From the NCBI GenBank assembly GCA_964415355.1, contig CAYPYS010000002.1, forward strand, positions 8,048 through 72,047: 64,000 bases of DNA. The letters are read 5' to 3'. Positions within the stretch are counted from its first letter, which is position 1; each line of letters begins with the position of its first letter. Made by a program: the position numbers and the translations under genes. Below the pieces are notes generated by a model. That model did not search any database and was not told the origin of the DNA. It saw only the letters and a program-made list of their open reading frames with translations. Positions 44,704 through 64,000 of this stretch are shown piece after piece. This DNA comes from an uncultured Planctomycetia bacterium (GTDB taxonomy: Bacteria > Omnitrophota > Gorgyraeia > Gorgyraeales > Gorgyraeaceae).

Positions 44704-44758
44704 TGTTATGATATTATTGTAAATAAAATGCAGTAAGCAAACAAAAGGAGGAATACCA

Positions 44759-44992
44759 ATGCCATATGATGCTTCTTTAGACAAGGAAATCTTTGGTAAG
44801 GCTGTTGAGAATGACATGGGGAGATTGTCAGTAAAGGTTATGGCTTACAATGAAGGCGTCAAGAAATTGCAGATATCCAGGGAGAGACGCGACGCGGAAG
44901 GCGAATATAAATTTGCCAAATTAGGGAGAATGACAAAGGAAGAGGCGGAGAGTATTGTTCCTTTGATCCAAGAAGCCCTGCCGCAGATGTAA
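44759..44992 (+). CDS. hypothetical small protein
   Basis: RBS aaaggagg. Confidence 0.35.
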   Translation: MPYDASLDKEIFGKAVENDMGRLSVKVMAYNEGVKKLQISRERRDAEGEYKFAKLGRMTKEEAESIVPLIQEALPQM

Positions 44993-45018
44993 GGATTCCG
45001 AAGACAGCTATAAGATAT

Positions 45019-45444
45019 ATGAGAATCAGGGTATTTTTGTTATTGGCTATGGTTTTGTTTTTGAAAAACCCGGCCTTGGCTGAAGCTGGCGTGGGAGAAA
45101 AGCTGGCCGGCGTGACCATTAAAAGCACGGTTAAGGTATATGTAGCAATAACAAACATTGAAAAGACAAAGAAGAAGATCGTTGATAAGATACAAAAAAC
45201 AGATAAAAAAGAATTCAGGGAACGATATGCCAAGCTTTATGAGCTGGTAAAGGATTTGCCTTCGGATATAAAGACTACTTACAGGATCACCCCTGGCATG
45301 ACCATGGAGCAGATGGTTGAAAATGTAAGATCAGTAGATAAGAAGGCGGTATATAAAATAATAAATAGCATGTCCGATAGAACTGTTACAGAGCTTTTTA
45401 AGCAATATCTTAAGGAGATGGGCAAAAAATCCAAAAAAATGTAA
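45019..45444 (+). CDS. secreted hypothetical protein
   Basis: signal peptide ALA-EA. Confidence 0.4.
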   Translation: MRIRVFLLLAMVLFLKNPALAEAGVGEKLAGVTIKSTVKVYVAITNIEKTKKKIVDKIQKTDKKEFRERYAKLYELVKDLPSDIKTTYRITPGMTMEQMVENVRSVDKKAVYKIINSMSDRTVTELFKQYLKEMGKKSKKM

Positions 45445-45470
45445 ACTATGATTACAATTAAATGCGGAAA

Positions 45471-45510
45471 GTAAAACCTTCACGGCGAAAGCTGTGAGGG
45501 TTTTTTATTT
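45471..45510 (+). terminator. terminator cassette copy 1 (ccttcacggc gaaa gctgtgaggg plus T-run)
   Basis: hairpin with G-U wobbles plus tttttt; near-identical copies at 45972 and (minus strand) 55371. Confidence 0.6.
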
Positions 45511-45567
45511 TTGACCCCGTCGCCATAAATCCTGAGATATTGGCCGATTGGTGATCCCTGCGACTTA

Positions 45568-45596
45568 TTGACTATTTTGAAGACAGGGTGTAGAAT
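45568..45596 (+). promoter_or_regulatory. promoter TTGACT-17-TAGAAT (promoter cassette copy A, 45523-45617)
   Basis: about 95-bp block nearly identical to 47284-47387. Confidence 0.6.
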
Positions 45597-45617
45597 GAAA
45601 TTAAGTGGGAGGTGCAT

Positions 45618-45890
45618 ATGGACTGGAAGATATTTTTGGCAACGTTTAGCGCTATATTTCTTGCAGAACTTGCAGATAAGACACAGTTTGTTGGTATTGG
45701 CATGTCAGCGAAGTCAGGGAAACCTTTATCGGTTTGGCTTGGCTCTATATCCGCGTATATCATTGTTACTGCTATCACGGTTTTGATCGGAGCTACTCTA
45801 GGAAAGTACATAAAACCCGAGATCGTAAGATATACTGGCGCATCGCTATTTGTAATAATCGGAATTTTGATGTTTTTCGGGAAAATATGA
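45618..45890 (+). CDS. UPF0016 (GDT1/TMEM165) family membrane protein, single-repeat form
   Basis: ELADKTQ motif; 3 TM helices; ATG 45618 after GGGAGG. Confidence 0.6.
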   Translation: MDWKIFLATFSAIFLAELADKTQFVGIGMSAKSGKPLSVWLGSISAYIIVTAITVLIGATLGKYIKPEIVRYTGASLFVIIGILMFFGKI

Positions 45891-45971
45891 AACCTTGACA
45901 AACCTGTGATCCCGATGTAAACTATGACTACAATTAAATAATGTCCCGTGTTTGAAGGATGAAATCCCGGA

Positions 45972-46012
45972 CAATAATAAAGTAAAACCTTCACGGCGAA
46001 AGCTGTGAGGGT
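45972..46012 (+). terminator. terminator cassette copy 2
   Basis: same hairpin plus T-run as 45471-45510, preceded by the same gtaaactatgaYtacaattaaat block. Confidence 0.6.
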
Positions 46013-46038
46013 TTTTTGTTTTATATAACTCCGTGCTA

Positions 46039-46139
46039 TTACCTAACAAATATATTAGAAGTACTGTTTGTTAGGTAACTTTCCTTATTGACATTTGTTA
46101 CCTAACAATGTATACTATTTAATAGAGTGTTAGGTAACA
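46039..46139 (+). promoter_or_regulatory. operator array: four TTACCTAACAA half-sites forming two inverted-repeat pairs overlapping promoter TTGACA(46088)-17-TATACT(46111)
   Basis: 46039-46050/46067-46078 and 46097-46108/46128-46139 read directly. Confidence 0.55.
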
Positions 46140-46151
46140 AGGGGGTGCAAT

Positions 46152-46469
46152 ATGGGCGTTATAAAAGGAGCCTTGAAAGAAGAGCTTGAAAATTCTCTGC
46201 GCATGAAGAAGGAATATGAAAAGGCCTTAAAGGAGCTTCCGGATGGATGCTTGGCCGAAAAGAAGATACGCGGCCATAAATATTATTATTTAGTCAAAAG
46301 GTTCCATAAGAAGGTCAAATATATCTATAAAGGTAAGCTTTTAAAGGAAGAGGTCGCTAAATACAACGACGCTAAGATCCTAAGGGCTAAATACAGAAAA
46401 TTGCTGTCGCAGGTTAAAAAGCAGATAAGGTTTTTAAGGAGTAGTCTACGTGGAAAAGAATCAATATAA
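46152..46469 (+). CDS. small basic hypothetical protein (candidate regulator/antitoxin of the downstream nucleotidyltransferase)
   Basis: overlaps downstream gene by 20 nt; strongly regulated promoter. Confidence 0.35.
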   Translation: MGVIKGALKEELENSLRMKKEYEKALKELPDGCLAEKKIRGHKYYYLVKRFHKKVKYIYKGKLLKEEVAKYNDAKILRAKYRKLLSQVKKQIRFLRSSLRGKESI

Positions 46470-47124
46470 ACTATGCCTCGAGGTCCTCAAGCGGTTTAAT
46501 AAAGCAGGTATTCTGGACGGATTCATTTTGATAGGCAGCTGGTGCCTGTATTTTTACAAGGCCTATTTCAAGAAAACCCCATATATAGATGTTTCTACGC
46601 TTAGAACCAGGGATATAGATTTTTTAATACCTATTCCGCCAAAGATTAGGAAAAGCGTTGATGTGCCAGAGCTACTCAAGGATCTTGGATTTGTGACGGA
46701 TTTTAAAGGAAGCAGAGGCTACATAAAGCTCGATCACCCTGACCTTATATTGGAATTTTTAGTACCGGAAAAAGGCAGAGGGGATGACAGGCCTTACAGG
46801 TTGCCACAATTAGGTATGAACGCTACGTCATTAAGGTTTCTAAGTTTTTTAATGGATAACGTTATCCGAATCAAGGTAGAAGATTTTTATATCAATGTAC
46901 CGCATCCCGCGAATTTCGCATTGCATAAACTTATTATTTTTCAGAGGAGAACAAAGGAGTATAAGGTTTTAAAAGATAAAAATACAGCTATTGGAGTTCT
47001 AAGGGCATTGCTCGATAAAGGCGAAGGCCATATAATCAAAAAGACACTGGGATCTGTTCCTCAGAAGTGGAAGAAAAAGATTATCAAAGGATTGGAGGGA
47101 GAGAAAGCGCTTCATATTTTCTAA
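46450..47124 (+). CDS. nucleotidyltransferase-fold protein (AbiEii/MNT-like GS...RxxDIDF motif)
   Basis: LIGSW...TLRTRDIDFLIP. Confidence 0.4.
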   Translation: MEKNQYKLCLEVLKRFNKAGILDGFILIGSWCLYFYKAYFKKTPYIDVSTLRTRDIDFLIPIPPKIRKSVDVPELLKDLGFVTDFKGSRGYIKLDHPDLILEFLVPEKGRGDDRPYRLPQLGMNATSLRFLSFLMDNVIRIKVEDFYINVPHPANFALHKLIIFQRRTKEYKVLKDKNTAIGVLRALLDKGEGHIIKKTLGSVPQKWKKKIIKGLEGEKALHIF

Positions 47125-47220
47125 TCTCATCTCAGTCGTACGTTCGAAGGGGTTCACTGCGACTCTAAACAATTAAAACCTTCTTTTGTCAACCGTACCA
47201 CCAAACAAAAGGAGGTTTTA

Positions 47221-47322
47221 ATGCTTATAGCCAAGGTTTTCCGACTTATCCTGATAACCATAATCTTCATAATAGCTTACCTTCCGATCACTATAAATCC
47301 TGAGATATTGGCCGATTGGTGA
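47221..47322 (+). CDS. 33-aa hydrophobic peptide (MLIAKVFRLILITIIFIIAYLPITINPEILADW), type I toxin-like or leader peptide
   Basis: RBS AGGAGG sequestered in hairpin aaaaccttcttttg..caaaaggaggtttt; paralogue on minus strand at 54869-55030. Confidence 0.35.
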   Translation: MLIAKVFRLILITIIFIIAYLPITINPEILADW

Positions 47323-47335
47323 TCCCTGTGACTTA

Positions 47336-47364
47336 TTGACTATTTTAGAGGATGAGGGTAGAAT
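47336..47364 (+). promoter_or_regulatory. promoter TTGACT-17-TAGAAT (promoter cassette copy B, 47284-47387)
   Basis: near-identical to copy A. Confidence 0.6.
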
Positions 47365-47372
47365 GAAATTAA

Positions 47373-48161
47373 ATGGGCAGCGCATATATGAATAAGAAAC
47401 CATTAAGCAAGATGACTCAAGATGAAATAAAAGAGGCAGTTAAAGAAAAATACAGCAAAGTGGCAAAAGAACCCTGCGTTTCGTTTAACTTCCCGGTAGG
47501 AAAGGCTTTTGCTTTAAAAGTAGGTTATCCTAAAGATATACTTGGCAGACTTCCTCGATCCATGTATGAATCCTTTACAGGCGCCAATAATCCTCAACCT
47601 TTTGTGGAGTTAAAAGAGGGAGAAACAGTCTTAGATTTAGGGTGTGGGGCAGGATTAGACCTTTATTTTTATGCAAAAGCAGTAGGAACTAATGGTAAGG
47701 TCTATGGCTTAGATATTTCGCAAGATATGATCAGTAAGGCAAGAGATAATATGGAAGCAGCAGGAGTTAAGAATGCAGAAATTAAATGCGGCCACTCCGA
47801 TAGCCTTCCTTTTGAAGATAATTTTTTTGATATTGTAGCCTCAAATGGAATCTATAATCTATCACCTAACAAAGAAAAAGTTATGAAAGAAGTATTCAGG
47901 GTATTGAAGCCCGGAGGTAGAACTGTTTTTAGTGAAGTTGTTCTAAAAGACAGCCTCCCGGAAAGCATAAAAAAGAATATTGATGACTGGTTTCGGTGTA
48001 TAGGTGGCGCATTGCCTGAAAGAGATTTTTTAGCACTTATGGAAAAGGTTGGATTTAGGAATATAGAGGTTATATCAAAAGTCAGGAATGCCAGAACAGG
48101 TCATAAGTTAGCCATTTGTGCCAACATCCGCGGTTATAAGGGAGGAGTTTTAAATGGATAA
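47373..48161 (+). CDS. ArsM-like class I SAM-dependent methyltransferase
   Basis: VLDLGCGAGLD motif I; DIVASNGIYNLSPNKEKVMKEVFRVLKPGGR matches the ArsM/UbiE-like core, but the GCGNP Cys motif is replaced (TGANNP); alternative start 47388. Confidence 0.55.
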   Translation: MGSAYMNKKPLSKMTQDEIKEAVKEKYSKVAKEPCVSFNFPVGKAFALKVGYPKDILGRLPRSMYESFTGANNPQPFVELKEGETVLDLGCGAGLDLYFYAKAVGTNGKVYGLDISQDMISKARDNMEAAGVKNAEIKCGHSDSLPFEDNFFDIVASNGIYNLSPNKEKVMKEVFRVLKPGGRTVFSEVVLKDSLPESIKKNIDDWFRCIGGALPERDFLALMEKVGFRNIEVISKVRNARTGHKLAICANIRGYKGGVLNG

Positions 48162-48489
48162 GCTTGCAGGAGAAGCGCTTAAATTGGTTGATATGGTGGA
48201 TTATCAAGCTGGGTCTGTGGTGAGCAAGCAGATAATAAAGAAAGACACAGGAACAGTGACTTTGTTTGCCTTTGATAAGGGACAGGGGTTGAGTGAACAT
48301 ACGGTGCCGTTTGACGCCCTGGTTTATATTTTTGACGGTGAGGCAGAGATCACTATAGATGGCAGGCCTAACTTAGTAGGGTCAGGCAATATGATAATCA
48401 TGCCGGCTAATAAACCGCATTCTGTAAAAGCAGCAAAGCGGTTCAAGATGCTTCTTGTAATGATAAAGGAAAAGAACTTAGGTATCTAA
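48154..48489 (+). CDS. cupin-domain protein
   Basis: G(X)5HXH-like EHTVPFDALVYIFDGEA...PANKPHS pattern. Confidence 0.55.
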   Translation: MDKLAGEALKLVDMVDYQAGSVVSKQIIKKDTGTVTLFAFDKGQGLSEHTVPFDALVYIFDGEAEITIDGRPNLVGSGNMIIMPANKPHSVKAAKRFKMLLVMIKEKNLGI

Positions 48490-48881
48490 TGAAAAGACTG
48501 ATAGTATTAATGATAATATTATTATCTATATTTGGATTTTTATTATTTAATAGCAAGGCGCTTCTGATCTACAGGGTAACTGAAGTCAGAGAAGGGGATG
48601 TTCATACGTCGCGCAAGGTGTTCTTTGATTGGGAGACGTTTTTGGATTACCTGAAAGATATTCCTGATAGAGTCATGGGGAGAGTTTTTTTAAAGGGCGT
48701 CAAAGCATCCGGAGATATTAAATTGACCGACAGGGAGCAGGAAAGCATTGGAGAGATAATAAAAGACGTGGGAGTATTGACAGATAAAATAGAAGATAAG
48801 GAAATCGCTGAAGAGATAAATAAGTTGATGGAGAATTACAAGGGCCTGGATGGCCTGATGGAAGAACTTGAACAAAAATAA
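48489..48881 (+). CDS. membrane-anchored hypothetical protein
   Basis: N-terminal TM helix. Confidence 0.35.
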   Translation: MKRLIVLMIILLSIFGFLLFNSKALLIYRVTEVREGDVHTSRKVFFDWETFLDYLKDIPDRVMGRVFLKGVKASGDIKLTDREQESIGEIIKDVGVLTDKIEDKEIAEEINKLMENYKGLDGLMEELEQK

Positions 48882-49422
48882 CAAACGAAGATCAGCTAGG
48901 GGTATCATGAATAAGAAAGGAAATAGCTCTATTATGTTTATATCTACGGTTATCATGGGAATATTGGCTGTGGTGTTGTTATTAGTAGCTTATTATAAAG
49001 GCGTGCATATGACAGGGCTGAATCAGGCCATGCGCATGACCATGCAGATATTGCCTTTGCTTATCTTTGCCTTTATAGTGGCAGGCATGGCGCAGGCGCT
49101 TTTGCCTCACGAGACCATATCCAGATGGATAGGTGAGGAGTCAGGTATGAAGGGCGTATTGATCGGGACAGTGGCCGGGGCAATGACACCTGGCGGGCCG
49201 TATTTGAGTTTACCGATAGTCGCGGGGCTTTTGAAGTCCGGCGCGAGCATAGGCGTGATGGTGGCGTATATTGCCGGCTGGAGTCTTTTGAATATCAGCA
49301 GATTGCCTATGGAGATAGGTATACTCGGGTGGAGATTTACTTTGGTGAGATTTTTGAGCGTTTTAATACTTCCGCCCATAGCCGGGGCCTTCGCGCATTA
49401 TATCAGCAAGGTTTTGAGATAG
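48868..49422 (+). CDS. DUF318-type permease subunit (half-size membrane permease)
   Basis: multi-TM; TPGGPY motif. Confidence 0.45.
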   Translation: MNKNNKRRSARGIMNKKGNSSIMFISTVIMGILAVVLLLVAYYKGVHMTGLNQAMRMTMQILPLLIFAFIVAGMAQALLPHETISRWIGEESGMKGVLIGTVAGAMTPGGPYLSLPIVAGLLKSGASIGVMVAYIAGWSLLNISRLPMEIGILGWRFTLVRFLSVLILPPIAGAFAHYISKVLR

Positions 49423-49916
49423 ACAGATCGTCATTGCGAGATCAATTGCATTGATCCTGCCAGAGTAACTAATAAAGCAAAAGATTAGTATATAGGGGGA
49501 GATTAAGGTTTGCGTAGAGGGTTTTAGCCATATAAACTTGGTTTCTTTATGATTAAGCCTAACCGCCTATAATGTATCTTATGTTAACTTGGTTATATGA
49601 GAAGAAAAGCCATAAGTCTATATGGCTCAATGAGTTGCGTATTTTTGTTAATTGTCTGTGAATAACTCTTTTTCTTCTTTGGTTGGTATATTGCTTGTCA
49701 TTCCCGCTTACACGGGAATCTTAATAGGTAGGTTATTATTACGCGTGTTTTGGCTTATTATAGCCCTTTATAGACCAGATTATTACTAGGTATAGCCTAA
49801 TTACTGCTTCTCCCCCGCTTGTCATCCTCGCGAAAGCGGGGATCCATTAGAAGCTATATTTTTACCCCTTATAAACCCATCGACCCCTAAAAACCAGTAG
49901 TCGATATAAACCTATA

Positions 49917-50453
49917 TTAATCTAATATCAGACGAAATGATTTTGTTCTCTCAAAAACAGTATTCCTTAGCTCCCTATGAACTCTTTGCAAAATTGGCAA
50001 TAGTCTAATTCTTCTAAAGTTATCCCAATCGTCAAATGTTCGATAATCATTATTAAAAACCATATTGTTTAATTCAGATTGCAATTGGGCGATTAAATCT
50101 ACTATCTCTGTACCATAATACAATCCCATCAGACCAAGCTGTAAATAGCTTTCTCTCGTAGCTCTATTAAAATTATCCAAAGAGACTTGTCTTCTTTGGA
50201 TAATTTCAGGATTATTGTTAGTTATGCTACCCTGTTGTATCTGTAGATTAATATTGGCAAGTTCCCACATCGAAATCAACATGAGACACAGACTATTCAA
50301 AATGTTTGTAGCTGTGTTATCCTTAGCAATAAGGTATTTAGTCTTTATGTCTCTTTCAAAGTGAAATTTGGCAATTTGTATAGTAGTGTAAGCAACAATA
50401 ATAGGCGATATAAGGCCGAATACTATTGTTTTAATAATTGCATCGGAAAACAT
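49917..50453 (-). CDS. hypothetical protein with N-terminal TM helix
   Basis: no recognisable motifs. Confidence 0.35.
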   Translation of the reverse strand: MFSDAIIKTIVFGLISPIIVAYTTIQIAKFHFERDIKTKYLIAKDNTATNILNSLCLMLISMWELANINLQIQQGSITNNNPEIIQRRQVSLDNFNRATRESYLQLGLMGLYYGTEIVDLIAQLQSELNNMVFNNDYRTFDDWDNFRRIRLLPILQRVHRELRNTVFERTKSFRLILD

Positions 50454-50571
50454 AATATCCCTACCAATCCTTTTTTAAATACTTATAGTGTTTGTAATAC
50501 TACCTAACAACCCCGCCCCTATCAACCTCTTCCTTGCTGTAAGCTGTGCTAAAATAAGACACTGCTATCGA

Positions 50572-51420: not shown

Positions 51421-51422
51421 AA

Positions 51423-52364: not shown

Positions 52365-52384
52365 AACCTGTCTCCTTATTTAAT

Positions 52385-55410: not shown

Positions 55411-55614
55411 TTTTTTAACGTCCGGGATTTACCCCTTCTTAACTCGGGACTTTATTTGATTATACTTATATTTTACATGCCAGGGGTGGGTTTGTCAAGG
55501 ATTTGCACTCTCGTTAACTCATTTGCAAATCACTTTTTAACCCCGTCTGCCCTCGCCTACCCTTTTCTCTCTATCTAAGACACTGCATCATCGAAGCCTT
55601 AAAGCTTTTCCTCG

Positions 55615-55661
55615 CCCTGTAGTGTTTCGGAGGTCTCTCACGCCTCCGAAACACTACAGGG
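55615..55661. repeat. perfect 19-bp-stem hairpin (ccctgtagtgtttcggagg-N9-cctccgaaacactacaggg), no T-run
   Basis: read directly. Confidence 0.6.
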
Positions 55662-55797
55662 CTCCCAAACCCAAAACACCTAAATGAGATCGCTTCGTCG
55701 CCTACGGCTCCTCGCAATGACGTTCTTCTCGACTCGCTTCGCTCGCTCGAAGAATATTACCTTTCTCTACTACCCCCCCCTATCTCTTCCCCTCCTA

Positions 55798-56160: not shown

Positions 56161-56168
56161 ATGTCACT

Positions 56169-56804: not shown

Positions 56805-56948
56805 ATAGTGTTCCTTTCTTTTTATCTTCATTATGATATAACAACAAAAAGCAACCCCGACATTATGCCAAGATTGCTTTATATTATAGAAATATTGACT
56901 TCTTTCCCACTCCCACCCCATTGTGGTTATTGTATATATGATACTACG

Positions 56949-56977
56949 TTAGGCTTATTGAGTCAAGGTGAGGCGTG
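56949..56977 (-). promoter_or_regulatory. minus-strand promoter TTGACT-17-TATCAT within a conserved 45-bp module (copy 1)
   Basis: near-identical module at 60950-60998. Confidence 0.5.
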
Positions 56978-57042
56978 TTATGTACTAAATGTGGATAGCG
57001 GAAGACAGTGAGTAAAGGTTAGGTTAACTGTGTAGATAGAAT

Positions 57043-59277
57043 TTATTTGGCATATAAATGTTTTCTAACCAGGTCAAAATCATCTAATGCATCATGCGGC
57101 ATTGCAGCGCCATATCTTTCTATAATAGCTATATACTCCTCCCTTGTATCTCCTTGGACATTATCAGCTATTATAAAAACCGTTCTTTCAGGGATTTCAA
57201 TGCGTTTTCTTATTTCATCTTCTTGAGTCTTGAAATATACAATAATGACCGGAACTTCGTGCGGAGAAATATTACTAATTCCATGTCTAATTTTTTCTAA
57301 TCCAGCTTCATCCGCTAATATGTTACCTTCAAATAAGCTTGCTCCATTAAATAAGACAGGAGTTGCTTCTATTAAAGAAGAAGCGTGTTTATCATATTGC
57401 AGCTCAATATCCTTTTGAACAAAAGCAAGAACCATGGCAGCAATAAGCATTGGCGTGACTTCTTCTTTCGCTACAAGTTCTTGCATTAAAGGCAATTCAG
57501 ATGGACTAAGACCGATATCGTTAAGAACCTCTTGCGGTAATTCAGATAGGTCTAAATCAAAACCTGCAAAGTCTGCTGGTGAAAATTCAAATAAGTTTAG
57601 ACCAAAGCCAGCCCTGTACGCATGCCCTCCGCCCCATCTTCCTTTAGGTCCATTTATACATAAGAAGCTGACATCGATTTCATCAAAATCAGATCTCCGC
57701 GCCAAAAGTACAGCCATGCTATTATCTTCTGCTATATAATAATGTACCAATACTCTGTTGCCAAACTGACCATTATCATTAAGAAGGCCGAATACTATCT
57801 TGTGCACGAGAAGGGTAACGTTACCTTTTTCTGCCGGAATTTTATAAAAATAAACCTTCCTGTTAGAAGCAAGGAATTCTTTTATAGAGCCATCAACCTC
57901 GTTCATGATACCTCTGGACCACTCAAAGAAATCATCTCCGAATCTCCTCTGCATCGTTTCTTCAAGCCCTCTCCTTAAATCTTCAAAGGAACCGCTAGAA
58001 GAGATAACCTGAATGATTTCTTTCATTGCTCCGCGCCTTTTCGCGAGTTCTTCCGGTTTCCAATTAAATAAATAAGTCCCGCATAGATTAAGTAGCCCTG
58101 AAACATGCCTAGCTTCTTCTGAATCAAGATCTTTGTTTAGACTTGGGAAATTTGAAGAAGAATAATCGGCGTAAAGAGACAGTTGTTTTAAGAAATGATA
58201 CCAAGGATCACCTTCTGTCTTCATCAGGTCTGCTTCAAATGCACCTGAAGCATAGCTATCAGGATCCGCTACTTCTCCGATAATAAGGTGGACATTTATA
58301 AGAAATATTTTATCTCTTTCGTATTTATCAATACAATTGTTAAATGTTCCGATGTTATTAGCAGCTATAAACTCCTTGCTCCATTTATGGTGATCCTGCA
58401 CAATGATAGTATCGAAACCAAAAGAATCGCTTAAACTGCCTCTTTTATATCTATCAGGCTCGGGAAGAAAAACATCCCCTACAAAAAGAGCCCTTTTACC
58501 CTTTAATTCTGAAAAATCAATCATCCTTTCATCTTCTTTATAGTGTGACAAAGGCAAAAGACATATATAAAGCTTCCCGTCGTGCCTCGCATCATTAGGG
58601 TCAGTGATGAATTCTACGTCTCTACCTTTGCCTCCTGCTTCATGAACCAGTCTGCGGTATACTGCTGCAGAAAAAGTAAAAGAATCTCCATCTATCGGTA
58701 TTTTTTGATTGTCATGGGGCGATATAACGACAATAGAATACTCATCAATAATTTTCTCTATCAAGTTGTCCAATAGCTGCTTTATCTTATTAAGATTACT
58801 AGCTTTATTTTCCCATTCATGCGCCAGATACTCTTCTGTTTCTATGACACCCTTGTCCCTATTCTGAATCCTGCGAAACTCACTTTCTTCTTTAGGCCAA
58901 AATAATCCATCTTTATATATTGCATAAGTATTTGTTTCAGCGTGATGTATCCAGGCATTTCCATGGACATCCTCTATCACTTGAAGATCTTCATCTTCTA
59001 TAAACTTAGATAACTCAGGGTCTTTTCTTAAACTTTCAAGAAACTGCTGAGGCGAAATGTTTGTTTTATTCTTCAGTATTTTTTGATAAGCGGCTGATAG
59101 TGATGCCCAGAAATATCTAGAGATTGTATTGCTATCACTATTATTAAAATCAAGCTCTTTTCTAAGATGGGTTTTATTGGATAACTCTATACCATAGACT
59201 GCAGCGTTAAAGAAAAGTACTCCAGCTGCAATTATTGATATAATTTTATAAGTTAAGGGTTTACTAAAGTTTTTCAT
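57043..59277 (-). CDS. large exported/membrane-anchored DHH-DHHA1 family phosphoesterase with about 250-aa N-terminal extension
   Basis: DGD, DHH (IVQDHHKW) and GGGH (GRWGGGHAYRAG) motifs; N-terminal TM/signal. Confidence 0.5.
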   Translation of the reverse strand: MKNFSKPLTYKIISIIAAGVLFFNAAVYGIELSNKTHLRKELDFNNSDSNTISRYFWASLSAAYQKILKNKTNISPQQFLESLRKDPELSKFIEDEDLQVIEDVHGNAWIHHAETNTYAIYKDGLFWPKEESEFRRIQNRDKGVIETEEYLAHEWENKASNLNKIKQLLDNLIEKIIDEYSIVVISPHDNQKIPIDGDSFTFSAAVYRRLVHEAGGKGRDVEFITDPNDARHDGKLYICLLPLSHYKEDERMIDFSELKGKRALFVGDVFLPEPDRYKRGSLSDSFGFDTIIVQDHHKWSKEFIAANNIGTFNNCIDKYERDKIFLINVHLIIGEVADPDSYASGAFEADLMKTEGDPWYHFLKQLSLYADYSSSNFPSLNKDLDSEEARHVSGLLNLCGTYLFNWKPEELAKRRGAMKEIIQVISSSGSFEDLRRGLEETMQRRFGDDFFEWSRGIMNEVDGSIKEFLASNRKVYFYKIPAEKGNVTLLVHKIVFGLLNDNGQFGNRVLVHYYIAEDNSMAVLLARRSDFDEIDVSFLCINGPKGRWGGGHAYRAGFGLNLFEFSPADFAGFDLDLSELPQEVLNDIGLSPSELPLMQELVAKEEVTPMLIAAMVLAFVQKDIELQYDKHASSLIEATPVLFNGASLFEGNILADEAGLEKIRHGISNISPHEVPVIIVYFKTQEDEIRKRIEIPERTVFIIADNVQGDTREEYIAIIERYGAAMPHDALDDFDLVRKHLYAK

Positions 59278-59423
59278 AATGTAGGTAAAAAAATAGCCTC
59301 TCCTTTTTGACTATAAAGGAGAAAGGCTTGCCCTGGTTAATACTTAATCTTATCTTATTATATCATATATGGCTTATATCTCCAAGCCATCTCTTCTTAA
59401 ATTTAAGCTTTATCGGATCCGAT

Positions 59424-60779
59424 TTAATGCCGTTTGAAAGAAAATTTGGGCGTTACCTTTACCAGCTTGCCAGCTATTTCCAACACCGGATATGCAAGAA
59501 AGTTAATCGGACCTGAATCAGGGCCCGGCTCGATCGTAAGGTCCCTGCCGCGGCTGAGTTCGAAACGGTTTGCAGGATGATGTCCGAAGTAGTAGGTCGA
59601 AAGGCTCGAATACTTATCGGCCTCGGAAATATCGATAGGGCGCCACTTTTCTTCGGCATAGAACTCCACCCAACAGTGATAACCGTCTATTCCTCCATTA
59701 TTGCGTTCCGAAGGGATTGCCGCGCCTATAGCAAAGCGGGCTGGGATGCCAACAGCCCTTGCCAAAGATATAAAGTAAGCGTGAAAGTCAGTGCAGTTTC
59801 CTGTGCGGACATTGCATGCATAAACAGCGTCCCCCTTACCCCAGCCAGAGCCGTATTTCATGTAGCGCATGCGGTCGATGACGTGATCGTAAATGGCACG
59901 GGCTCGCACAAGGTTGCCCTTCTTGCCTTTGATAATTGTCTTGGCTATGTCTTTAAAATTTTCATCAATTGGGACGAGGCGGTCTGGCTCAAGACTTTTT
60001 TCCCGATCATCGGACTGCGGACTGTATGCGGATTTTTCAATGCGTTCTACCCGATAATGGATATCGATAGTCTTTGCGCTGTCTTCCGGCCCGAGCTCAA
60101 AGAAAAAAATCTTATTACCGTATTCGGTTTCCTCTAGTATGCGGTAATTTTTAGGTGAATCGATGCTGTCTATATTGACTTTCTGGAATGCGTCTGTTGC
60201 CGGAAAAGGAAGCCACATGCGGGCGATATCGCTTATCTCAGGAAGTTTTACTCTATATGTAAACTCAAACGCGTCTTGGCCCGTGATCACCCCGAGCAAT
60301 TGCGGTGCGGCGCCTTCTATGGGGACTCGTTTCCATGTGCCTCTCCAGTTTTGCTTCCACGCGTAGAACGGGATGCCGTTGAGCTTATGGAGGGTCGTCT
60401 CGGTTACAGTCATGGCGCCGGGGTCACCGGAAAGAAAAAAATCCATGTCATATACATCGCCGGATGTGTCTACCATGTCCACGCAGGCAAAATGGCGGCG
60501 CGGACCAAGGTTCGCCAGGTATTCAGTATGAACGCGTACCAGTTTAAACGAATGTTCCTTGTCGCTCGAGGAGAATTTAAAATAGCCTTCTCCTTGCACG
60601 GTCTGCTCTTCGATGTGTTTCTCTATGCCGGTTTGTATGTCCGATGTTACTACATTGGGCGTAGTTTTGCTTGCTTCTACCGGACTACACCCTTCAAGAG
60701 CAGCGCATAGTACGATTGCCACTGCTATTGTTATATGTCGAATGACAGCATATATTTCTAGCATATATTTTTGTAACAT
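59424..60779 (-). CDS. transglutaminase-like cysteine-protease-domain lipoprotein
   Basis: GNCTDFHAYFISLARAVGIPAR plus downstream His/Asp; lipobox LEGC. Confidence 0.65.
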   Translation of the reverse strand: MLQKYMLEIYAVIRHITIAVAIVLCAALEGCSPVEASKTTPNVVTSDIQTGIEKHIEEQTVQGEGYFKFSSSDKEHSFKLVRVHTEYLANLGPRRHFACVDMVDTSGDVYDMDFFLSGDPGAMTVTETTLHKLNGIPFYAWKQNWRGTWKRVPIEGAAPQLLGVITGQDAFEFTYRVKLPEISDIARMWLPFPATDAFQKVNIDSIDSPKNYRILEETEYGNKIFFFELGPEDSAKTIDIHYRVERIEKSAYSPQSDDREKSLEPDRLVPIDENFKDIAKTIIKGKKGNLVRARAIYDHVIDRMRYMKYGSGWGKGDAVYACNVRTGNCTDFHAYFISLARAVGIPARFAIGAAIPSERNNGGIDGYHCWVEFYAEEKWRPIDISEADKYSSLSTYYFGHHPANRFELSRGRDLTIEPGPDSGPINFLAYPVLEIAGKLVKVTPKFSFKRH

Positions 60780-60802
60780 GTATATGACAGTGAAATCAAT
60801 CT

Positions 60803-60928
60803 TTATTCAGGGTGGTCTGACTTTGGATGATCATGCGAAGGATGTTCTGCCCCAGAGTGTTTTTCGCAGCCTACAAGAGACAAGCTGATAACTGTGCACA
60901 TGAGCGCAAGCAACAATAATTTTTTCAT
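60803..60928 (-). CDS. 41-aa His-rich lipopeptide MKKLLLLALMCTVISLSLVGCEKHSGAEHPSHDHPKSDHPE
   Basis: strong RBS gagggggtag; lipobox LVGC; not in ORF track. Confidence 0.4.
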   Translation of the reverse strand: MKKLLLLALMCTVISLSLVGCEKHSGAEHPSHDHPKSDHPE

Positions 60929-60958
60929 GTCTACCCCCTCTCTGTGTTGATCATATAT

Positions 60959-60987
60959 ATGATACTACTTTGGGTTTATCAAGTCAA
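60959..60987 (-). promoter_or_regulatory. minus-strand promoter TTGACT-17-TATCAT (conserved 45-bp module, copy 2)
   Basis: 24-nt leader to the lipopeptide start. Confidence 0.5.
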
Positions 60988-61008
60988 GATGGGGAAAGCT
61001 CGGGGGAT

Positions 61009-64000
61009 CTATAGCGAGGTATCGGTAGGTTTAATATTTTCGATATGTCCAAATGGCTCAAATGTCATTGGGTTGACTAAAATATCTTCTACAAGAAATT
61101 TTTCTCCAGAATCAGTCACCTCGATCCTGTAGCTTCTAATCGGGTTTCTCAAGTTTGGATCTTCTGATCCCTCAGAAAAACCAAAGGTCTCGAGCAGCCA
61201 ATCCGAGGCTTTGATACCGGGCAGTAAGTTTCGTCTTATCATCTCTATTATAGTCGAAAGATTAAAATATCCTCTATTGCCTGCATAATCTGCCGGGCCT
61301 TTCAGCGCAACAGGCCTGCCGTCGTCTTCCCATGTTAGCCCTTCTACTGTAAATTCGCCTTGCACGTCAGGATTTCTATAGCCTATTTTTATCTCACTTT
61401 TGTCATCTGTTCTTACGATTCTTATAGGATAAGCCTCTCTGTCATTCCTTGTTTTATTATCTTCCGATCTTTGCCCTTCAAAAGAAATAATGCTAACGTC
61501 TCTTTCAGTTCTGAATGAAAACCTGCCTGTGCCTATAGAAATCTGAAATAAACGCTTATCGCCCGGGGCTGCGATGCCAGCTTCTATGCTTCTTTCCAAT
61601 GACTCATCGAAGTCTCTAAAAACACTTGATTCATGAAGATCGTAACCAGGCATCTCATCGCCATTAATAGATATGGTCCTGGTAATTTTTAATTTCGAGT
61701 CTTCTTCTAAAGGAATTATCTTTCCCTCTCTCCATTCATATCCAACTATATTGTCAGGATTAGCTATATCTTCGAACACAAGAAAACGAGCCTCATTTTC
61801 CCTGTCCCGGTAAATCCTTATCCTTCCTGGATGGGTCTCGTGCCACGATGGTAAATAAAGACGCCCGTGAAAATTTATGTATCTTTCTTTCTGCTCGTAA
61901 TCAACGCCAAACGTCTTATCCCTAAGATGTTGCGCTACAGCTAGCAATCTCTCTTTGCCCTGATCAAGTGGTATTGAAAATACAGTATCATAAAAATCAG
62001 AAAAAACAGGCATTAAAGTAAGCGTCAATGATGTCTTTCCTTCAATATCTGTCATATCTTCTGTAACCTTTTTTCCTGAAGGTCGAATATAAGTAAGTCT
62101 TAATATACCTTTTTCTTTGATGCACTCCAAGGTCAGCCTGTTTTTAGGATTTTTTATGTCCACAATATCTATTTTTGCCTCGTTTGAAATAGGTGTTTTT
62201 TGGGCAGATATTCGCACCCTTCCGTCTAGCTGACGCGGCAAGCGTATCCTTGCCCCGGCAAAAAGAAAATTCCTTCCAATCGTGATATTAGCCTTTCCGG
62301 AAAACTTTCCTATGCCATAATCAGAAGGATCAAGGTCGTTCGCTTGAAAATGTTTATATAATAATGCTACTGGATTACGGCTTATTCTCAAGCTTGGCAT
62401 AGCTTCTGCTGTTTCTCGTATATTAGGCGGTCTTTTTAATTGTTTTCTCAGTCTAGAAGCAATTCTTTTTATTTCGGAATCGAGCGCTTTTCTCGAATCC
62501 GGACCCCTTACTACTTTTACCAATATTCGACGGCCCTGTTCAAATATTGCCTCGTCAATATTCTTGACCTCGCCATCGACTATTTCAAAATATTCACCGC
62601 CTGCCCGCACATAAAAATTGTTATTATCCCCTATCCTTATCCGCTCCTGCAAATGATGCTCGGATTCATTGAATTCTTGCTTAATCTTTCTGTTTATAGT
62701 ATCAGCCTTAATGCCCGTAGCTTGAAGTTCCTGTATTCTTCGTATTACTATCAATCCCTTGGTCTTTGTTTTTATAGTAAGGATACCATCTTCTACTTCG
62801 AAGGAAATATTTATTAAGGCAGGATATTCTGTTAGAACTTTTTCTTTGCTGATACTTTTAATTCCATCTTCGTTTTTGTTAAAATCCAGGCAAGCTTGCA
62901 TGTACTCTTTGAATAAAAAAGGAGGCATGCTCTCGAAGTTCACTTCTCTAAAACCTTCTTTAGAGCTATCCCATAGGCCATAAAGAAGGCGTAATAAATA
63001 ATACATTTGCTCAAGATCAAGTTCTCGAAGATATTCAAATCCATTATCGAATCTGATATTTGACAGGAATTTATCAAATCTATCGTTCCAATCTAGGTCT
63101 AACTCGTCGTCGATAAAATTAAACGGGTTGTCACGATGGTAAGGGTTAGAATTCGCATGCTTTAGAAAGACTCCATAGAGCCTATAAAAATCTGTCCCAT
63201 TTTTAGTAATGTCATCGAGTATTTCTTTTCTTCTGCTTCCGGGAAGAGACGAATGGGCATTGAGAATCAAATCAACCACAGCTGCTAATCGAAGCGTGCT
63301 CATATATGCCTGTGACTCACCGATAATTATATTTTCTCCCGCAAGTTCTCTTTGCAAAACCGTTGCCTTGTTTATCCCGTTCAAGCAACTCATTGCCAAA
63401 GTAATTTCATCAGTTGTTAAGCTATCGGTTTCCGTTTGTAATTCAGAATGTAAATCTGCCAGGTCGGAAAGCACTCTTATTGGACCATTGTTATTTGGAT
63501 CGAAATATCTGCTTCCAGGGTATGGAATAGTTCTAAAAACAGAGGCCATATAAGAACCTGATTTCATCAAAAAATGTGCAGTCTTGATTATTGAACCAAA
63601 GCTCTGTCCGGGCAAGCCAACCTGTAAATATGAGACAACCACTATCCGGAGTTCTTCGGCAATTGCAATATTTTCAAGTACTTTGTCCATAGCAATTTTA
63701 GAGTCTTTGACGGCATTCATTAGTCCTTCATCTCCGCTTTCTATTCCCAAATATATCGTTGTAAGCCCAGAGTCCTTCATTGCTTCAAGCATTTCTCTGT
63801 CAAGCAAATCCGCTCTTGTGGTGCATGACCAGTAAAAATTATCACCTTCTTTCTCGGCTCGTAATTTATATTCTTTCATTATTGCTATGATTTGCATTGC
63901 TCTTTCTCTGACAAGGCTCCATGTTTCATCTCTGAATGAAAAAGCCCGGACACCCGTGCTATACAATTCCTCTATTTCTTGTCGCATAAGCTCAACGTCG
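61009..64000 (-). CDS. giant radical-SAM-domain protein, 5'-truncated by window end; C-terminal half of rSAM core followed by about 850-aa extension of unknown function
   Basis: ...WSCTTRADLLDREMLEAMKDSGLTTIYLGIESGDEGLMNAVKDS...GLPGQSF matches rSAM strands 4-6; ORF open to window edge. Confidence 0.5.
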   Translation of the reverse strand, partial: DVELMRQEIEELYSTGVRAFSFRDETWSLVRERAMQIIAIMKEYKLRAEKEGDNFYWSCTTRADLLDREMLEAMKDSGLTTIYLGIESGDEGLMNAVKDSKIAMDKVLENIAIAEELRIVVVSYLQVGLPGQSFGSIIKTAHFLMKSGSYMASVFRTIPYPGSRYFDPNNNGPIRVLSDLADLHSELQTETDSLTTDEITLAMSCLNGINKATVLQRELAGENIIIGESQAYMSTLRLAAVVDLILNAHSSLPGSRRKEILDDITKNGTDFYRLYGVFLKHANSNPYHRDNPFNFIDDELDLDWNDRFDKFLSNIRFDNGFEYLRELDLEQMYYLLRLLYGLWDSSKEGFREVNFESMPPFLFKEYMQACLDFNKNEDGIKSISKEKVLTEYPALINISFEVEDGILTIKTKTKGLIVIRRIQELQATGIKADTINRKIKQEFNESEHHLQERIRIGDNNNFYVRAGGEYFEIVDGEVKNIDEAIFEQGRRILVKVVRGPDSRKALDSEIKRIASRLRKQLKRPPNIRETAEAMPSLRISRNPVALLYKHFQANDLDPSDYGIGKFSGKANITIGRNFLFAGARIRLPRQLDGRVRISAQKTPISNEAKIDIVDIKNPKNRLTLECIKEKGILRLTYIRPSGKKVTEDMTDIEGKTSLTLTLMPVFSDFYDTVFSIPLDQGKERLLAVAQHLRDKTFGVDYEQKERYINFHGRLYLPSWHETHPGRIRIYRDRENEARFLVFEDIANPDNIVGYEWREGKIIPLEEDSKLKITRTISINGDEMPGYDLHESSVFRDFDESLERSIEAGIAAPGDKRLFQISIGTGRFSFRTERDVSIISFEGQRSEDNKTRNDREAYPIRIVRTDDKSEIKIGYRNPDVQGEFTVEGLTWEDDGRPVALKGPADYAGNRGYFNLSTIIEMIRRNLLPGIKASDWLLETFGFSEGSEDPNLRNPIRSYRIEVTDSGEKFLVEDILVNPMTFEPFGHIENIKPTDTSL

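What the first reader, a model, noticed from the sequence alone, without database searches (positions are those of the whole stretch)
44704..64000. Element-free 19-kb right-hand segment with cassette-like architecture: likely accessory/horizontally acquired region
After 22 copies in 44.7 kb the palindromic element is completely absent from the last 19.3 kb; by chance this is expected with probability below 1e-3. The same stretch instead uses its own duplicated promoter and terminator modules. It also carries a restriction-modification system, toxin-like peptides, a nucleotidyltransferase pair and many unknown genes, and shows mixed strand orientation.
Basis: partly seen in the sequence, partly recalled or inferred. 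Interest (0 to 1): 0.6.

Follow-up and report, generated by a model that had tools for sequence, protein, structure and literature searches.

The report
Repeat-free zone around the replication terminus
The stretch that lacks this genome's abundant 37-base palindrome is a 23-kb zone around the replication terminus (dif site) of an Omnitrophota bacterium; it mixes native but reshuffled genes with one clearly imported restriction-modification cassette, so it is an ordinary "repeat desert" and not one acquired island.

Summary
There are 22 palindrome copies up to 44,702 and none after. Overlapping metagenome contigs show the gap runs to about 67,784, where copies resume, so it is one 23.1-kb desert. 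All 30 other gaps are 4.9 kb or less (P about 6e-6).

The desert straddles the replication terminus. A unique dif-like XerCD site (49,562-49,589; 21/28 to E. coli dif, 22/28 to B. subtilis dif) sits where GC skew and gene orientation flip. Its 22-nt core is single-copy in 86 metagenome contigs, and skew has the same polarity in 22 of 27 of them. The "mixed orientation" is therefore two replichores meeting.

Only about 50,561-55,172 is clearly foreign. It has 33% GC and tetranucleotide z = 9.5. It encodes a BstYI-like endonuclease plus two methylases, with 75-81% identical homologues in other phyla. A relative carries a K+ channel gene in the same slot.

Genes at 44.7-48.2 kb are syntenic in a sister species, apart from a GDT1 gene and a nucleotidyltransferase pair inserted between duplicated promoter/terminator modules. 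Genes flanking dif differ in every relative. This is a known phenomenon (a REP desert in a plastic terminus) in a new phylum.

The parts
44666..44702 (.). Last copy of the 37-nt palindromic element. It marks the left edge of the desert, and its first TAA is the stop codon of the ArfB-like gene (44255-44668).
   Evidence: The orthologous copy after ArfB in sister species L007 is at L007:11657-11685.
44703..64000 (.). Element-free stretch inside the window. It continues to about 67,783 beyond the window, 23.1 kb in all.
44759..45444 (+). Two small native genes with no family match: a 77-aa protein (44759-44992) and a 141-aa protein (45019-45444). Both are conserved after ArfB in the sister species (98.7% and 87% aa).
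45468..45511 (+). Terminator module, copy 1 (14-bp stem followed by a T run). The same module occurs at 45979-46022 and, inverted, at 55372-55415. It is also present in L007 and L126.
   Evidence: (D8).
45520..45619 (+). Promoter module, copy 1 (TTGACT-17-TAGAAT). It is preceded by a 3' remnant of the small-peptide ORF and is 86% identical to 47288-47387.
   Evidence: (D6).
45618..45890 (+). Single-domain GDT1/UPF0016 cation transporter gene (90 aa). It is absent at this place in L007.
45979..46022 (+). Terminator module, copy 2.
   Evidence: (D8).
46152..47124 (+). Overlapping two-gene module, TA-like by inference only: a 105-aa protein of unknown family plus a 224-aa NTP_transf_8 nucleotidyltransferase. 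It is preceded by GTTAGGTAAC/GTTACCTAAC operator-like repeats and a strong promoter (46088-46116). It is absent in L007.
47134..47322 (+). Leader with two hairpins, the second sequestering the Shine-Dalgarno sequence, followed by a 33-aa hydrophobic peptide ORF (47221-47322). A homologous copy lies at 55108-54869 (-).
47288..47387 (+). Promoter module, copy 2, upstream of the ArsM-like gene.
   Evidence: (D6).
47373..49422 (+). Four-gene operon: ArsM-like SAM methyltransferase, a cupin, a 130-aa unknown protein, and a 184-aa ArsP_1-type permease. The methyltransferase and cupin are 82-89% identical in relatives. The permease-type protein is 58-61% identical to a 181-aa homologue in L016, so it is a natural short form and not truncated.
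49562..49589 (+). dif-like XerCD site ACCGCCTATAA-TGTATC-TTATGTTAACT. It lies in the 494-nt convergent gap where cumulative GC skew peaks.
49917..50453 (-). 178-aa protein of unknown family. It is native: a relative (L057) has a 90% identical copy in the same position next to dif.
50561..55172 (-). Horizontally acquired cassette, 33% GC. It carries a 282-aa unknown protein (50572-51420), a ParB_N-domain protein (51423-52364), a Dam-like D12 methylase (52385-53191), a BstYI-like endonuclease (53243-53878), an N4/N6 methylase (53848-54879), and the small-peptide/leader/promoter module (54869-55108). It is flanked by an imperfect ~35-nt direct repeat (50525-50560 and 55173-55209).
55372..55415 (-). 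Terminator module, copy 3, downstream of the 120-aa gene.
   Evidence: (D8).
55798..64000 (-). Right-replichore block of lineage-specific genes. It holds a 120-aa protein, a PEGA/SHOCT protein (56169-56921), a 744-aa orphan (57043-59277), a transglutaminase-like protein (59424-60779), and a B12-binding radical SAM protein of 1398 aa (61009 to beyond the window). Duplicated promoter module D11 lies at 56910-56973 and 60931-60994.

Best explanation
The window crosses the replication terminus of a Candidatus Omnitrophota chromosome. The element-free stretch is a bounded 23-kb 'repeat desert' (44,703 to about 67,783) around the dif site at 49,562-49,589.

Shown:
(1) The dif-like site lies at the point where GC skew and gene orientation flip.
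(2) The palindromic element is dense on both replichores outside the desert, at about one copy per 1.9 kb.
(3) The desert is a mosaic. It contains native genes shared with a sister species. It contains small lineage-specific insertions (GDT1 and the nucleotidyltransferase pair) set between duplicated promoter/terminator modules. It contains one 4.6-kb low-GC BstYI-type R-M cassette in a slot that holds a different gene in a relative. It also contains a block of orphan or rare Omnitrophota genes.
(4) The genes next to dif differ in every relative examined.

Inferred:
- The palindromes are old residents of stable operon junctions, because they sit at orthologous junctions in the sister species.
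- The terminus-proximal zone turns over by insertion, replacement and rearrangement faster than the elements spread.
- DNA in that zone is therefore either younger than the element expansion or has lost its copies through replacement.
- Genes in the zone instead carry portable promoter and terminator modules.
For: Terminus and dif:
- GC skew is +0.09 to +0.26 up to about 49 kb and negative in nearly every window after that. The cumulative maximum is at 48-50 kb.
- Genes run + up to 49422 and - from 49917.
- A unique 28-mer matches E. coli dif at 21/28 positions and B. subtilis dif at 22/28 (reference sequences from PMC3025954).
- Its 22-nt core occurs once per contig in 86 metagenome contigs, some 378-833 kb long, and their flanks have diverged.
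- In 22 of 27 contigs with at least 1.5 kb on each side, GC skew is + on the left and - on the right, as here.
- At least six independent contigs cross the junction, so it is not a chimera.

Desert:
- Searches give the single 23,118-nt gap against a maximum of 4,885 nt elsewhere, and 0/22 against 32/66 junctions.

Mosaic structure:
- L007 keeps g44759, g45019 and ArsM after ArfB and the element, but lacks GDT1 and the nucleotidyltransferase pair.
- GC3 in the R-M block is 0.24-0.33, against 0.475 +/- 0.056 in the left part. Tetranucleotide z is 9.5 at 49.9-54.9 kb only.
- The endonuclease matches BstYI (PDB 1sdo) at E = 2e-69. Its homologues are 75-81% identical in Bacteroidota, WWE3, WOR-3 and Ignavibacteriales, whereas the U32 peptidase is only 57-63% identical in most other Omnitrophota loci.
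- L057 has dif and the 178-aa gene (90% aa), then a K+ channel-like gene in place of 50561-55172, then sequence matching 55173-55209.
- The 744-aa protein is an orphan and carries a nonsense variant and a 42-nt deletion in some strains. The radical SAM protein has few homologues.

Plasticity around dif:
- Searches show a different neighbour of dif in L057, L058, L063, L073, L075, L094, L105 and L126.

Old elements:
- L007 has six copies, mostly at junctions orthologous to those carrying copies here, with compensatory arm changes.

Precedent:
- Loper et al. 2012 report REP deserts that hold mobile elements and strain-specific genes, and rearrangements concentrated near the terminus (PMC3390384).
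Against: - The cause of the desert is inferred, not shown.
- At least 3.4 kb of the desert (g44759 to ArsM) predates the split from the sister species and is element-free there too, so not all of it is young DNA.
- The desert is asymmetric around dif: 4.9 kb on the left and 18.2 kb on the right.
- Only 84 kb of this genome was seen, so I cannot say whether similar deserts occur away from the terminus.
- No xerC or xerD gene was seen in the sequence available.
- Composition beyond about 57.9 kb is normal, so that part could be native DNA that lacks elements for another reason.
Confidence: 0.6

Rival explanations
1. One reading: the whole 19-23 kb is a single horizontally acquired genomic island that arrived after the palindrome had spread.
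For: The elements are absent. Mean GC is lower at 45-60 kb. The stretch contains an R-M system, a TA-like pair and orphan genes.
Against: There is no integrase, recombinase or tRNA. The sister species L007 has g44759, g45019 and ArsM in the same place at 87-99% aa identity. The 178-aa gene next to dif is 90% identical in L057. Composition is strongly atypical only at about 50-55 kb. The stretch contains the chromosome's own dif site.
Confidence: 0.05
2. Positional exclusion: long perfect-stem palindromes are selected against close to dif and the terminus, for example because hairpins or cruciforms interfere with fork convergence, FtsK translocation or Xer synapsis. The zone would then stay free of them whatever the age of the DNA.
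For: The desert contains dif and is bounded on both replichores. Its left edge, after ArfB, is the same in the sister species although the gene content behind it differs. Native, conserved genes inside the desert also lack elements.
Against: The desert is asymmetric around dif (4.9 kb against 18.2 kb). Other long hairpins are tolerated inside it, such as the 20-bp stem at 55614-55662 and the 14-bp terminators. I know of no precedent or mechanism. Only one locus was seen.
Confidence: 0.15
3. Transcription-unit architecture: the palindrome serves as, or survives only as, the spacer between cistrons of long housekeeping operons. Genes in the desert are short units with their own promoters and intrinsic terminators, so there is no niche for it.
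For: Outside the desert, 28 of 37 junctions of 38 nt or more consist essentially of the element, and 13 of 32 copies supply the upstream stop codon. Long-stem terminators (14-15 bp) and the 10-11/12 promoter matches in intergenic positions are concentrated in the desert. The equally long left stretch has terminator-like stems of 9 pairs or fewer.
Against: The desert also has tight co-directional junctions of 2-51 nt in the R-M cassette and in the PEGA/120-aa and epimerase/RNase T pairs, all without elements. This idea describes the pattern rather than explaining why units of this kind cluster here. It is compatible with the turnover model.
Confidence: 0.18
4. Chance clustering of a randomly scattered repeat.
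For: Only one region of the genome was examined, and it was chosen after the fact.
Against: P is about 6e-6 per gap. The junction test gives p = 7.7e-6. The gap coincides with dif, the skew switch and the compositional anomaly.
Confidence: 0.02

Closest known systems
REP deserts in Pseudomonas genomes (Loper et al. 2012, PMC3390384; read)
   Same: A genome-wide intergenic palindromic repeat is missing from discrete stretches of tens of kb. Those stretches hold mobile elements, strain-specific genes and atypical composition. Unique genes and rearrangements concentrate near the replication terminus.
   Different: The phylum (Omnitrophota) and the repeat family are different: a 37-nt AT-rich palindrome, MITE-like, that often supplies the stop codon. 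No RAYT transposase was seen. This desert is smaller than the 25-kb cut-off used in that paper, and it is centred on dif.
dif / XerCD chromosome dimer resolution site (Kono et al. 2011, PMC3025954)
   Same: It is 28 bp long with two 11-bp arms and a 6-bp spacer. The XerD-side arm TTATGTTAA is nearly identical to that of E. coli. The site is single-copy and lies at the GC-skew shift point.
   Different: The XerC-side arm has diverged (ACCGCCTATAA). The recombinases were not seen and activity was not tested.
BstYI (R^GATCY) and DpnII-type R-M systems with two methylases
   Same: The endonuclease aligns end to end with BstYI (PDB 1sdo, E = 2e-69). A D12 Dam-like methylase plus an N6_N4 methylase flank it, which is the arrangement I recall for DpnII (dpnM and dpnA; from memory).
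   Different: A ParB_N-domain protein and a 282-aa unknown protein ride in the same cassette. Specificity was not tested. The host shows no avoidance of GATC or RGATCY.
IMEX elements (integrative elements exploiting Xer, such as CTX phage and the gonococcal island; from memory)
   Same: A foreign cassette lies within 1 kb of dif.
   Different: No second dif or pseudo-dif flanks the cassette. A native gene lies between dif and the cassette. The flanking repeat is a promoter-like module.
Putative mobile promoters / promoter propagation (Matus-Garcia et al. 2012; from memory, not checked here)
   Same: Near-identical promoter-bearing segments of 40-100 nt stand upstream of unrelated genes: GDT1, ArsM, the R-M methylase, a gene at 29.2 kb, and the PEGA and transglutaminase-like genes.
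   Different: Here the duplicated modules bracket the inserted genes, so they look like scars or substrates of cassette insertion. Some carry a small peptide ORF and a structured leader.
Integron gene-cassette arrays
   Same: The region has a cassette-like look, with short units separated by repeated modules.
   Different: There is no IntI integrase and no attC sites. The repeated modules are promoters and terminators. The array is not in a single orientation, because it spans the terminus.

Membership tests
Repeat (REP) desert | An abundant interspersed repeat is present at high density on both sides of the stretch | tested here: met
   28 copies to the left and 4 to the right in the 84-kb super-window. 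Mean spacing is 1.9 kb.
Repeat (REP) desert | The gap is far longer than the repeat's spacing distribution allows | tested here: met
   The gap is 23,118 nt against a maximum of 4,885 nt elsewhere. 0/22 junctions inside carry an element against 32/66 outside, p = 7.7e-6.
Repeat (REP) desert | Atypical composition and/or strain-specific content | tested here: met
   The composition is strongly atypical only at about 50-55 kb (z = 9.5), mildly atypical at 45-50 and 55-60 kb, and normal beyond 57.9 kb. Variable content is shown.
Classical genomic island | Integrase or recombinase gene | tested here: not met
   No such domain was found in any ORF of 44.7-64 kb that was submitted to the Pfam, NCBIfam, PADLOC or PHROGs searches.
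Classical genomic island | Insertion next to a tRNA/tmRNA gene, with flanking att direct repeats | tested here: not met
   There is no tRNA in the window. No repeat flanks the whole stretch. Only the 4.6-kb cassette has a ~35-nt imperfect direct repeat.
Classical genomic island | Absent as a block from close relatives | tested here: not met
   The sister species L007 keeps three of the genes in place. L057 keeps the 178-aa gene.
dif site (XerCD target) | 28 bp with two 11-bp arms and a 6-bp spacer, similar to experimentally verified dif sites | tested here: met
   It matches E. coli dif at 21/28 and B. subtilis dif at 22/28. The core ATAA-N6-TTATGTTAA is exact.
dif site (XerCD target) | Single copy per chromosome | tested here: inconclusive
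   It is unique in the 64-kb window. Its core occurs once per contig in 86 contigs of up to 833 kb. The whole genome of this organism was not available.
dif site (XerCD target) | Located at the GC-skew shift point, where the replichores converge | tested here: met
   One search shows this for the window. One search shows the same polarity in 22 of 27 independent contigs.
dif site (XerCD target) | Cognate XerC/XerD (or XerH/XerS) recombinase encoded in the genome, and recombination at the site | not testable with these tools
   The rest of the genome could not be reached, and no experiment was possible.
Type II R-M system, BglII/BstYI family | Endonuclease homologous over its full length to a characterised enzyme | tested here: met
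   PF09195 at 4.8e-25. PADLOC REase_II at 8.7e-74. BstYI 1sdo at 2.3e-69, residues 8-211 against 1-203.
Type II R-M system, BglII/BstYI family | Adjacent cognate DNA methyltransferase | tested here: met
   A D12 methylase (PF02086, 9e-60) and an N6_N4 methylase (PF01555, 2e-54) flank the endonuclease.
Type II R-M system, BglII/BstYI family | Recognition of RGATCY and protection by methylation | not testable with these tools
   Only site counts could be made, and they show no avoidance.
IMEX (Xer-exploiting integrative element) | Element flanked by dif and a second dif-like site | tested here: not met
   No second site within 9 mismatches of the E. coli, B. subtilis or window dif was found in the desert. 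The only two other such matches lie at 35.9 and 43.1 kb, outside it, and no credible core match was found in 49.6-56 kb.
Integron cassette array | IntI integrase and attC recombination sites | tested here: not met
   There is no integrase. The repeats are promoter and terminator modules.
Type I toxin-antitoxin (small hydrophobic peptide) | Short conserved ORF encoding a single transmembrane helix | tested here: met
   Three copies share the core ILITxxFIxAYLPITIN, with differences mainly at third codon positions.
Type I toxin-antitoxin (small hydrophobic peptide) | mRNA fold that occludes the ribosome-binding site | tested here: met
   The predicted hairpin pairs GGAGG in all three copies, with z from -3.0 to -7.1. 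This is in silico only.
Type I toxin-antitoxin (small hydrophobic peptide) | Antisense RNA antitoxin and toxicity of the peptide | not tested
   There was no Rfam match and no experiment was possible.

The most novel reading that the evidence does not exclude
The terminus zone of these Omnitrophota may be an organised cassette-exchange site. In this reading, genes enter and leave next to dif by recombination between portable promoter/terminator/leader modules, which are found duplicated on both sides of each inserted unit (here and in L057, and as single copies in other gene contexts in L126 and L100). At the same time the genome's palindromic MITE-like element would be actively excluded from about 20 kb around dif. 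That would be a new, integrase-free way of building a defence and accessory gene slot at the terminus.
Probability: 0.1. Interest if true: 0.55.

Novelty: new member of a known kind. Interest (0 to 1): 0.3.

Why it matters
It gives a replication-terminus landmark for an uncultivated phylum. The conserved dif core, CTATAATGTATCTTATGTTAAC, occurs in 86 metagenome contigs and could be used to orient and check MAG assemblies.

It also shows that the absence of a genome-wide repeat marks a plastic terminus zone, not a single island. That is a caution for island-calling by repeat deserts.

The R-M cassette is a clean example of inter-phylum transfer into a slot next to dif. None of this changes current concepts.

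Tried and rejected
- tRNA and integrase search: nothing found.
- I first thought the ArsP-like gene had been cut by the insertion of the island. I rejected this because L016 has a 181-aa homologue, so the short form is natural.
- IMEX idea: no second dif-like site flanks the cassette.
- Rfam at gathering and at E <= 1 on 44.6-64 kb gave no credible family for the leader or for the intergenic hairpins.
- PADLOC, PHROGs and NCBIfam gave nothing for the 77-, 141-, 105-, 130-, 178-, 282-, 120- and 744-aa proteins.
- The window's 282-aa protein and the 281-aa protein in the same slot in L057 are not homologous.
- The GTCAT...-type hairpins near dif are few and also occur outside the desert, so they are not a replacement repeat family.
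- I looked for host avoidance of GATC and RGATCY as a sign of long residence of the R-M system and found none.
- The context of the only 744-aa homologue (L136) and of a distant radical SAM homologue (L047) showed no shared synteny.
- I tried to explain the different position of RNase T in L007 by one inversion between the two bordering palindromes. The gene orders do not fit a single event, so this is left open.

Full report
OBSERVATION

The palindromic element is TAACTTTACACTTTAACGTTGTTGAAATGTAAAGTTA, and it occurs in both orientations. The window holds 19 intact copies, against none expected in shuffles. One copy is split by a 34-nt insert (10047-10118). Two composite copies have arms separated by a ~160-nt multi-hairpin insert (28996-29192 and 38760-38956). 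The last copy is at 44666-44702, and nothing resembling the element follows in the window.

I extended the window using identical overlapping metagenome contigs of the same population. L134 covers the left and L046 the right, and the overlaps are 100% identical. Four further copies lie at about 67784, 68759, 71228 and 72996. The element-free stretch is therefore a bounded gap of 23,118 nt. The other 30 gaps in the 84-kb super-window average 1,929 nt and never exceed 4,885 nt.

Under an exponential model the probability of such a gap is about 6e-6 (my arithmetic). Counted by gene junctions, 32 of 66 outside the gap carry the element and 0 of 22 inside do (Fisher p = 7.7e-6).

ORGANISM

The U32 peptidase at 43029-44258 finds its best relatives in Candidatus Omnitrophota genomes. 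L007 gives 86% and the single-cell genome AM-311-J02 (L016) gives 81%. Most other Omnitrophota loci give 57-63%.

The left 44.7 kb is ordinary chromosome. It encodes an RlmN-like radical SAM methyltransferase, a U32 peptidase, an RF-1 domain (ArfB-like) protein, AhpC, a GGDEF-HD protein and three c-di-GMP-I riboswitches. The palindrome is thus a genome-wide intergenic repeat and not a local array.

Six independent metagenome contigs carry the same gene order across 44-52 kb, so the region is not an assembly chimera.

THE REPLICATION TERMINUS

GC skew is +0.09 to +0.26 from the start of the window to about 49 kb, and negative in nearly every window after that. The cumulative skew peaks at 48-50 kb. 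All sizeable genes run on the + strand up to 49422 and on the - strand from 49917.

In the 494-nt convergent gap lies ACCGCCTATAATGTATCTTATGTTAACT (49562-49589). It matches the experimentally defined dif of E. coli at 21 of 28 positions and that of B. subtilis at 22 of 28. The core ATAA-N6-TTATGTTAA is exact, and the site is unique in the window. The reference sequences come from Kono et al. 2011, PMC3025954.

Its 22-nt core occurs in 86 metagenome contigs, always once, including contigs of 378-833 kb. The core plus a few bases on each side is conserved while the flanks diverge.

I oriented those contigs like the window and took the 27 with at least 1.5 kb on both sides. In 22 of them, GC skew is positive to the left of the site and negative to the right. 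About a quarter would do so by chance.

This is what a dif site at the terminus should look like. The sign change from + to - excludes an origin. The 'mixed strand orientation' is simply the two replichores meeting.

ANATOMY OF THE DESERT

(a) 44.7-49.4 kb, the end of the left replichore. In sister species L007, ArfB and the orthologous palindrome are followed by an RNase T gene. After that come the orthologues of g44759 (98.7% aa), g45019 (87%) and the ArsM-like methyltransferase (89%). That part is native.

The window additionally has a single-domain GDT1 transporter gene (45618-45890). It also has an overlapping two-gene module: a 105-aa unknown protein and a 224-aa NTP_transf_8 nucleotidyltransferase, with its own promoter and repeated GTTAGGTAAC operators.

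These extra genes sit between duplicated modules. One is a 44-nt terminator, at 45468-45511 and 45979-46022, with a third inverted copy at 55372-55415. The other is a 100-nt promoter segment, at 45520-45619 and 47288-47387, 86% identical. L007 has one copy of each.

The ArsM-like gene (NCBIfam arsenite methyltransferase models) heads an operon with a cupin, a 130-aa protein and a short ArsP_1-type permease. That permease-type protein has a 181-aa homologue in L016, so it is not truncated.

(b) dif, followed by a 178-aa gene (49917-50453). Relative L057 has a 90% identical copy in the same position.

(c) About 50561-55172, a cassette of 33% GC against 43% in the left part. Its GC3 is 0.24-0.33, against 0.475 +/- 0.056. 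Its tetranucleotide deviation reaches z = 9.5, the only strong anomaly in 84 kb.

The cassette encodes a 282-aa unknown protein, a ParB_N-domain protein, a Dam-like D12 methylase, an N4/N6 methylase and an endonuclease. The endonuclease aligns end to end with BstYI (PDB 1sdo, E = 2e-69). Its homologues at 75-81% identity occur in Bacteroidota, WWE3, WOR-3 and Ignavibacteriales. That is higher than the 57-63% identity of a housekeeping protein across most other Omnitrophota loci, so the cassette moves between phyla.

In L057 the same slot holds an unrelated K+ channel-like gene. In both genomes the slot is bracketed by a direct repeat of a promoter-like module, about 35 nt here and 75 nt in L057.

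The host shows no avoidance of GATC or RGATCY.

(d) 55.2 kb to about 67.8 kb, the end of the right replichore. This block holds a 120-aa protein, which has a 60% homologue about 2 kb from dif in L063. It also holds a PEGA/SHOCT protein and a 744-aa orphan. The orphan has a single partial homologue among 5.8 billion proteins, and some strains carry a nonsense variant or a 42-nt deletion in it.

The block continues with a transglutaminase-like protein and a 1398-aa B12-binding radical SAM protein. That protein has only a handful of homologues at 45-68% identity. An epimerase and an RNase T follow. GC3 is mixed across the block (0.29-0.51), and tetranucleotide usage is normal beyond about 57.9 kb.

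No integrase, transposase or tRNA is present anywhere in the stretch.

PLASTICITY AROUND dif

In the relatives recovered through the dif core, the gene next to dif is different almost every time:
- the w41418 homologue in L058, L073, L094 and L063;
- the cupin in L075;
- g45019 in L105;
- g44759 plus an ACT protein about 4 kb from dif in L126.

In L100, a more distant organism, another N4/N6 methylase cassette lies within 2 kb of dif. It is preceded by the same leader motif as here.

The RNase T gene that follows ArfB in L007 lies on the other side of dif in this genome.

WHY THE PALINDROME IS MISSING

This part is inferred. Outside the desert the element is the usual spacer between cistrons. 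It fills 28 of the 37 junctions of 38 nt or more, and 13 of 32 copies supply the upstream TAA stop.

L007 has six copies, mostly at junctions orthologous to those carrying copies here, and some have compensatory changes in both arms. L016 has none. The copies are therefore old and stably inherited within a narrow clade.

The zone around dif is where content changes fastest. Genes there come with portable promoters and long-stem terminators, which are rare in an equally long stretch of the left part.

The simplest account is that turnover in the terminus zone outpaces the spread of the element. This matches what has been described for REP deserts and terminus-biased rearrangement in Pseudomonas (PMC3390384).

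Two alternatives cannot be excluded with one locus:
- Active exclusion of long palindromes near dif. In its favour, the left edge of the desert is the same in L007, and native genes inside the desert also lack copies.
- A purely architectural effect, in which the element has no operon-spacer niche among short transcription units.

Chance is excluded. The single-island reading is contradicted by synteny, by composition and by the presence of dif itself.

COMPARISON AND VERDICT

The finding is a real feature that was partly misread. It is a repeat desert at a plastic replication terminus. It contains a promiscuous BstYI-type R-M cassette and small insertions bracketed by duplicated regulatory modules.

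Each ingredient is of a known kind: dif/XerCD sites, REP deserts, mobile R-M systems and propagated promoters. What is new is the phylum and the particular sequences.

Interest is modest. The leads most worth following are the module-bracketed cassette slot next to dif, the small-peptide leader, and the palindromic element itself, which is a separate topic.

Noticed in passing
window 84-44702 (32 copies between -7994 and 72996 in the extended sequence); L007:884-11685: The 37-nt palindrome behaves like a MITE family. 13 of 32 copies supply the TAA stop codon of the upstream gene, and both orientations are equally common. Three copies carry inserts between the arms (34 nt, and about 160 nt twice at 89% identity). 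The sister species keeps most of its copies at orthologous junctions, with compensatory arm changes (TTCACA..TGTGAA and TTAACA..TGTTAA). A more distant relative (L016) has none.
   Followed up: partly
window 47134-47322 (+), 55108-54869 (-); L126:7380-7670 (-); leader only at L100:7882-7930 (-): This is a conserved module: hairpin P1, then a second hairpin that pairs the Shine-Dalgarno sequence, then a 33-53 aa single-helix peptide with the core ILITxxFIxAYLPITIN. It stands upstream of unrelated genes: ArsM, the R-M methylase, and g44759 in L126. It has no Rfam match. It could be a type I toxin-like gene or a portable leader.
   Followed up: partly
window 50525-50560 and 55173-55209; L057 (dif-oriented) 2711-2785 and 3665-3740: The variable slot next to dif is bracketed by a direct repeat of a promoter-like module in two genomes that carry different cargo: the R-M cassette here and a K+ channel-like gene in L057.
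   Followed up: partly
window 57043-59277 (-): This 744-aa protein has essentially no homologues; the only one covers 19% of it at 65% identity. Some metagenome strains carry a premature stop (L042) or a 42-nt deletion (L041). It looks like a dispensable or fast-evolving surface protein.
   Followed up: partly
L007:11691-12524 versus extended window 66236-67012 (-): The RNase T-like gene lies directly after ArfB and the palindrome in the sister species. In this genome it lies 22 kb away, on the other side of dif and on the other strand (78% aa identity). A single inversion does not explain it.
   Followed up: partly
window 2491-2577 (+), 34454-34543 (+), 18722-18859 (-): Three c-di-GMP-I riboswitches lie in 45 kb, alongside PilZ and GGDEF-HD genes. 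This suggests heavy use of c-di-GMP signalling in this Omnitrophota genome.
   Followed up: no
window 49430-49845 and 55614-55760: The two long intergenic regions of the desert contain other hairpins: GTCATTGCGAG, GTCATTCCCGC..GGGAATC, GTCATCCTCGCGAAAGCGGGGATCC, and a 20-bp perfect stem at 55614-55662. Several metagenome contigs end at about 55.6 kb, probably because of these repeats.
   Followed up: partly
window 3232-5781 (+): An 849-aa protein carries five tandem PKD repeats with a period of about 261-276 nt (repeat families D5 and D7). One metagenome strain (L135) has this gene split in two.
   Followed up: no
L100:5379-8540: In a different organism, on a 114-kb contig, the genes right of dif are a small radical SAM protein, an N6_N4 DNA methylase, a 189-aa unknown protein and an ORF6N/Rha-like phage regulator. 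This is another mobile-looking cassette beside dif.
   Followed up: partly
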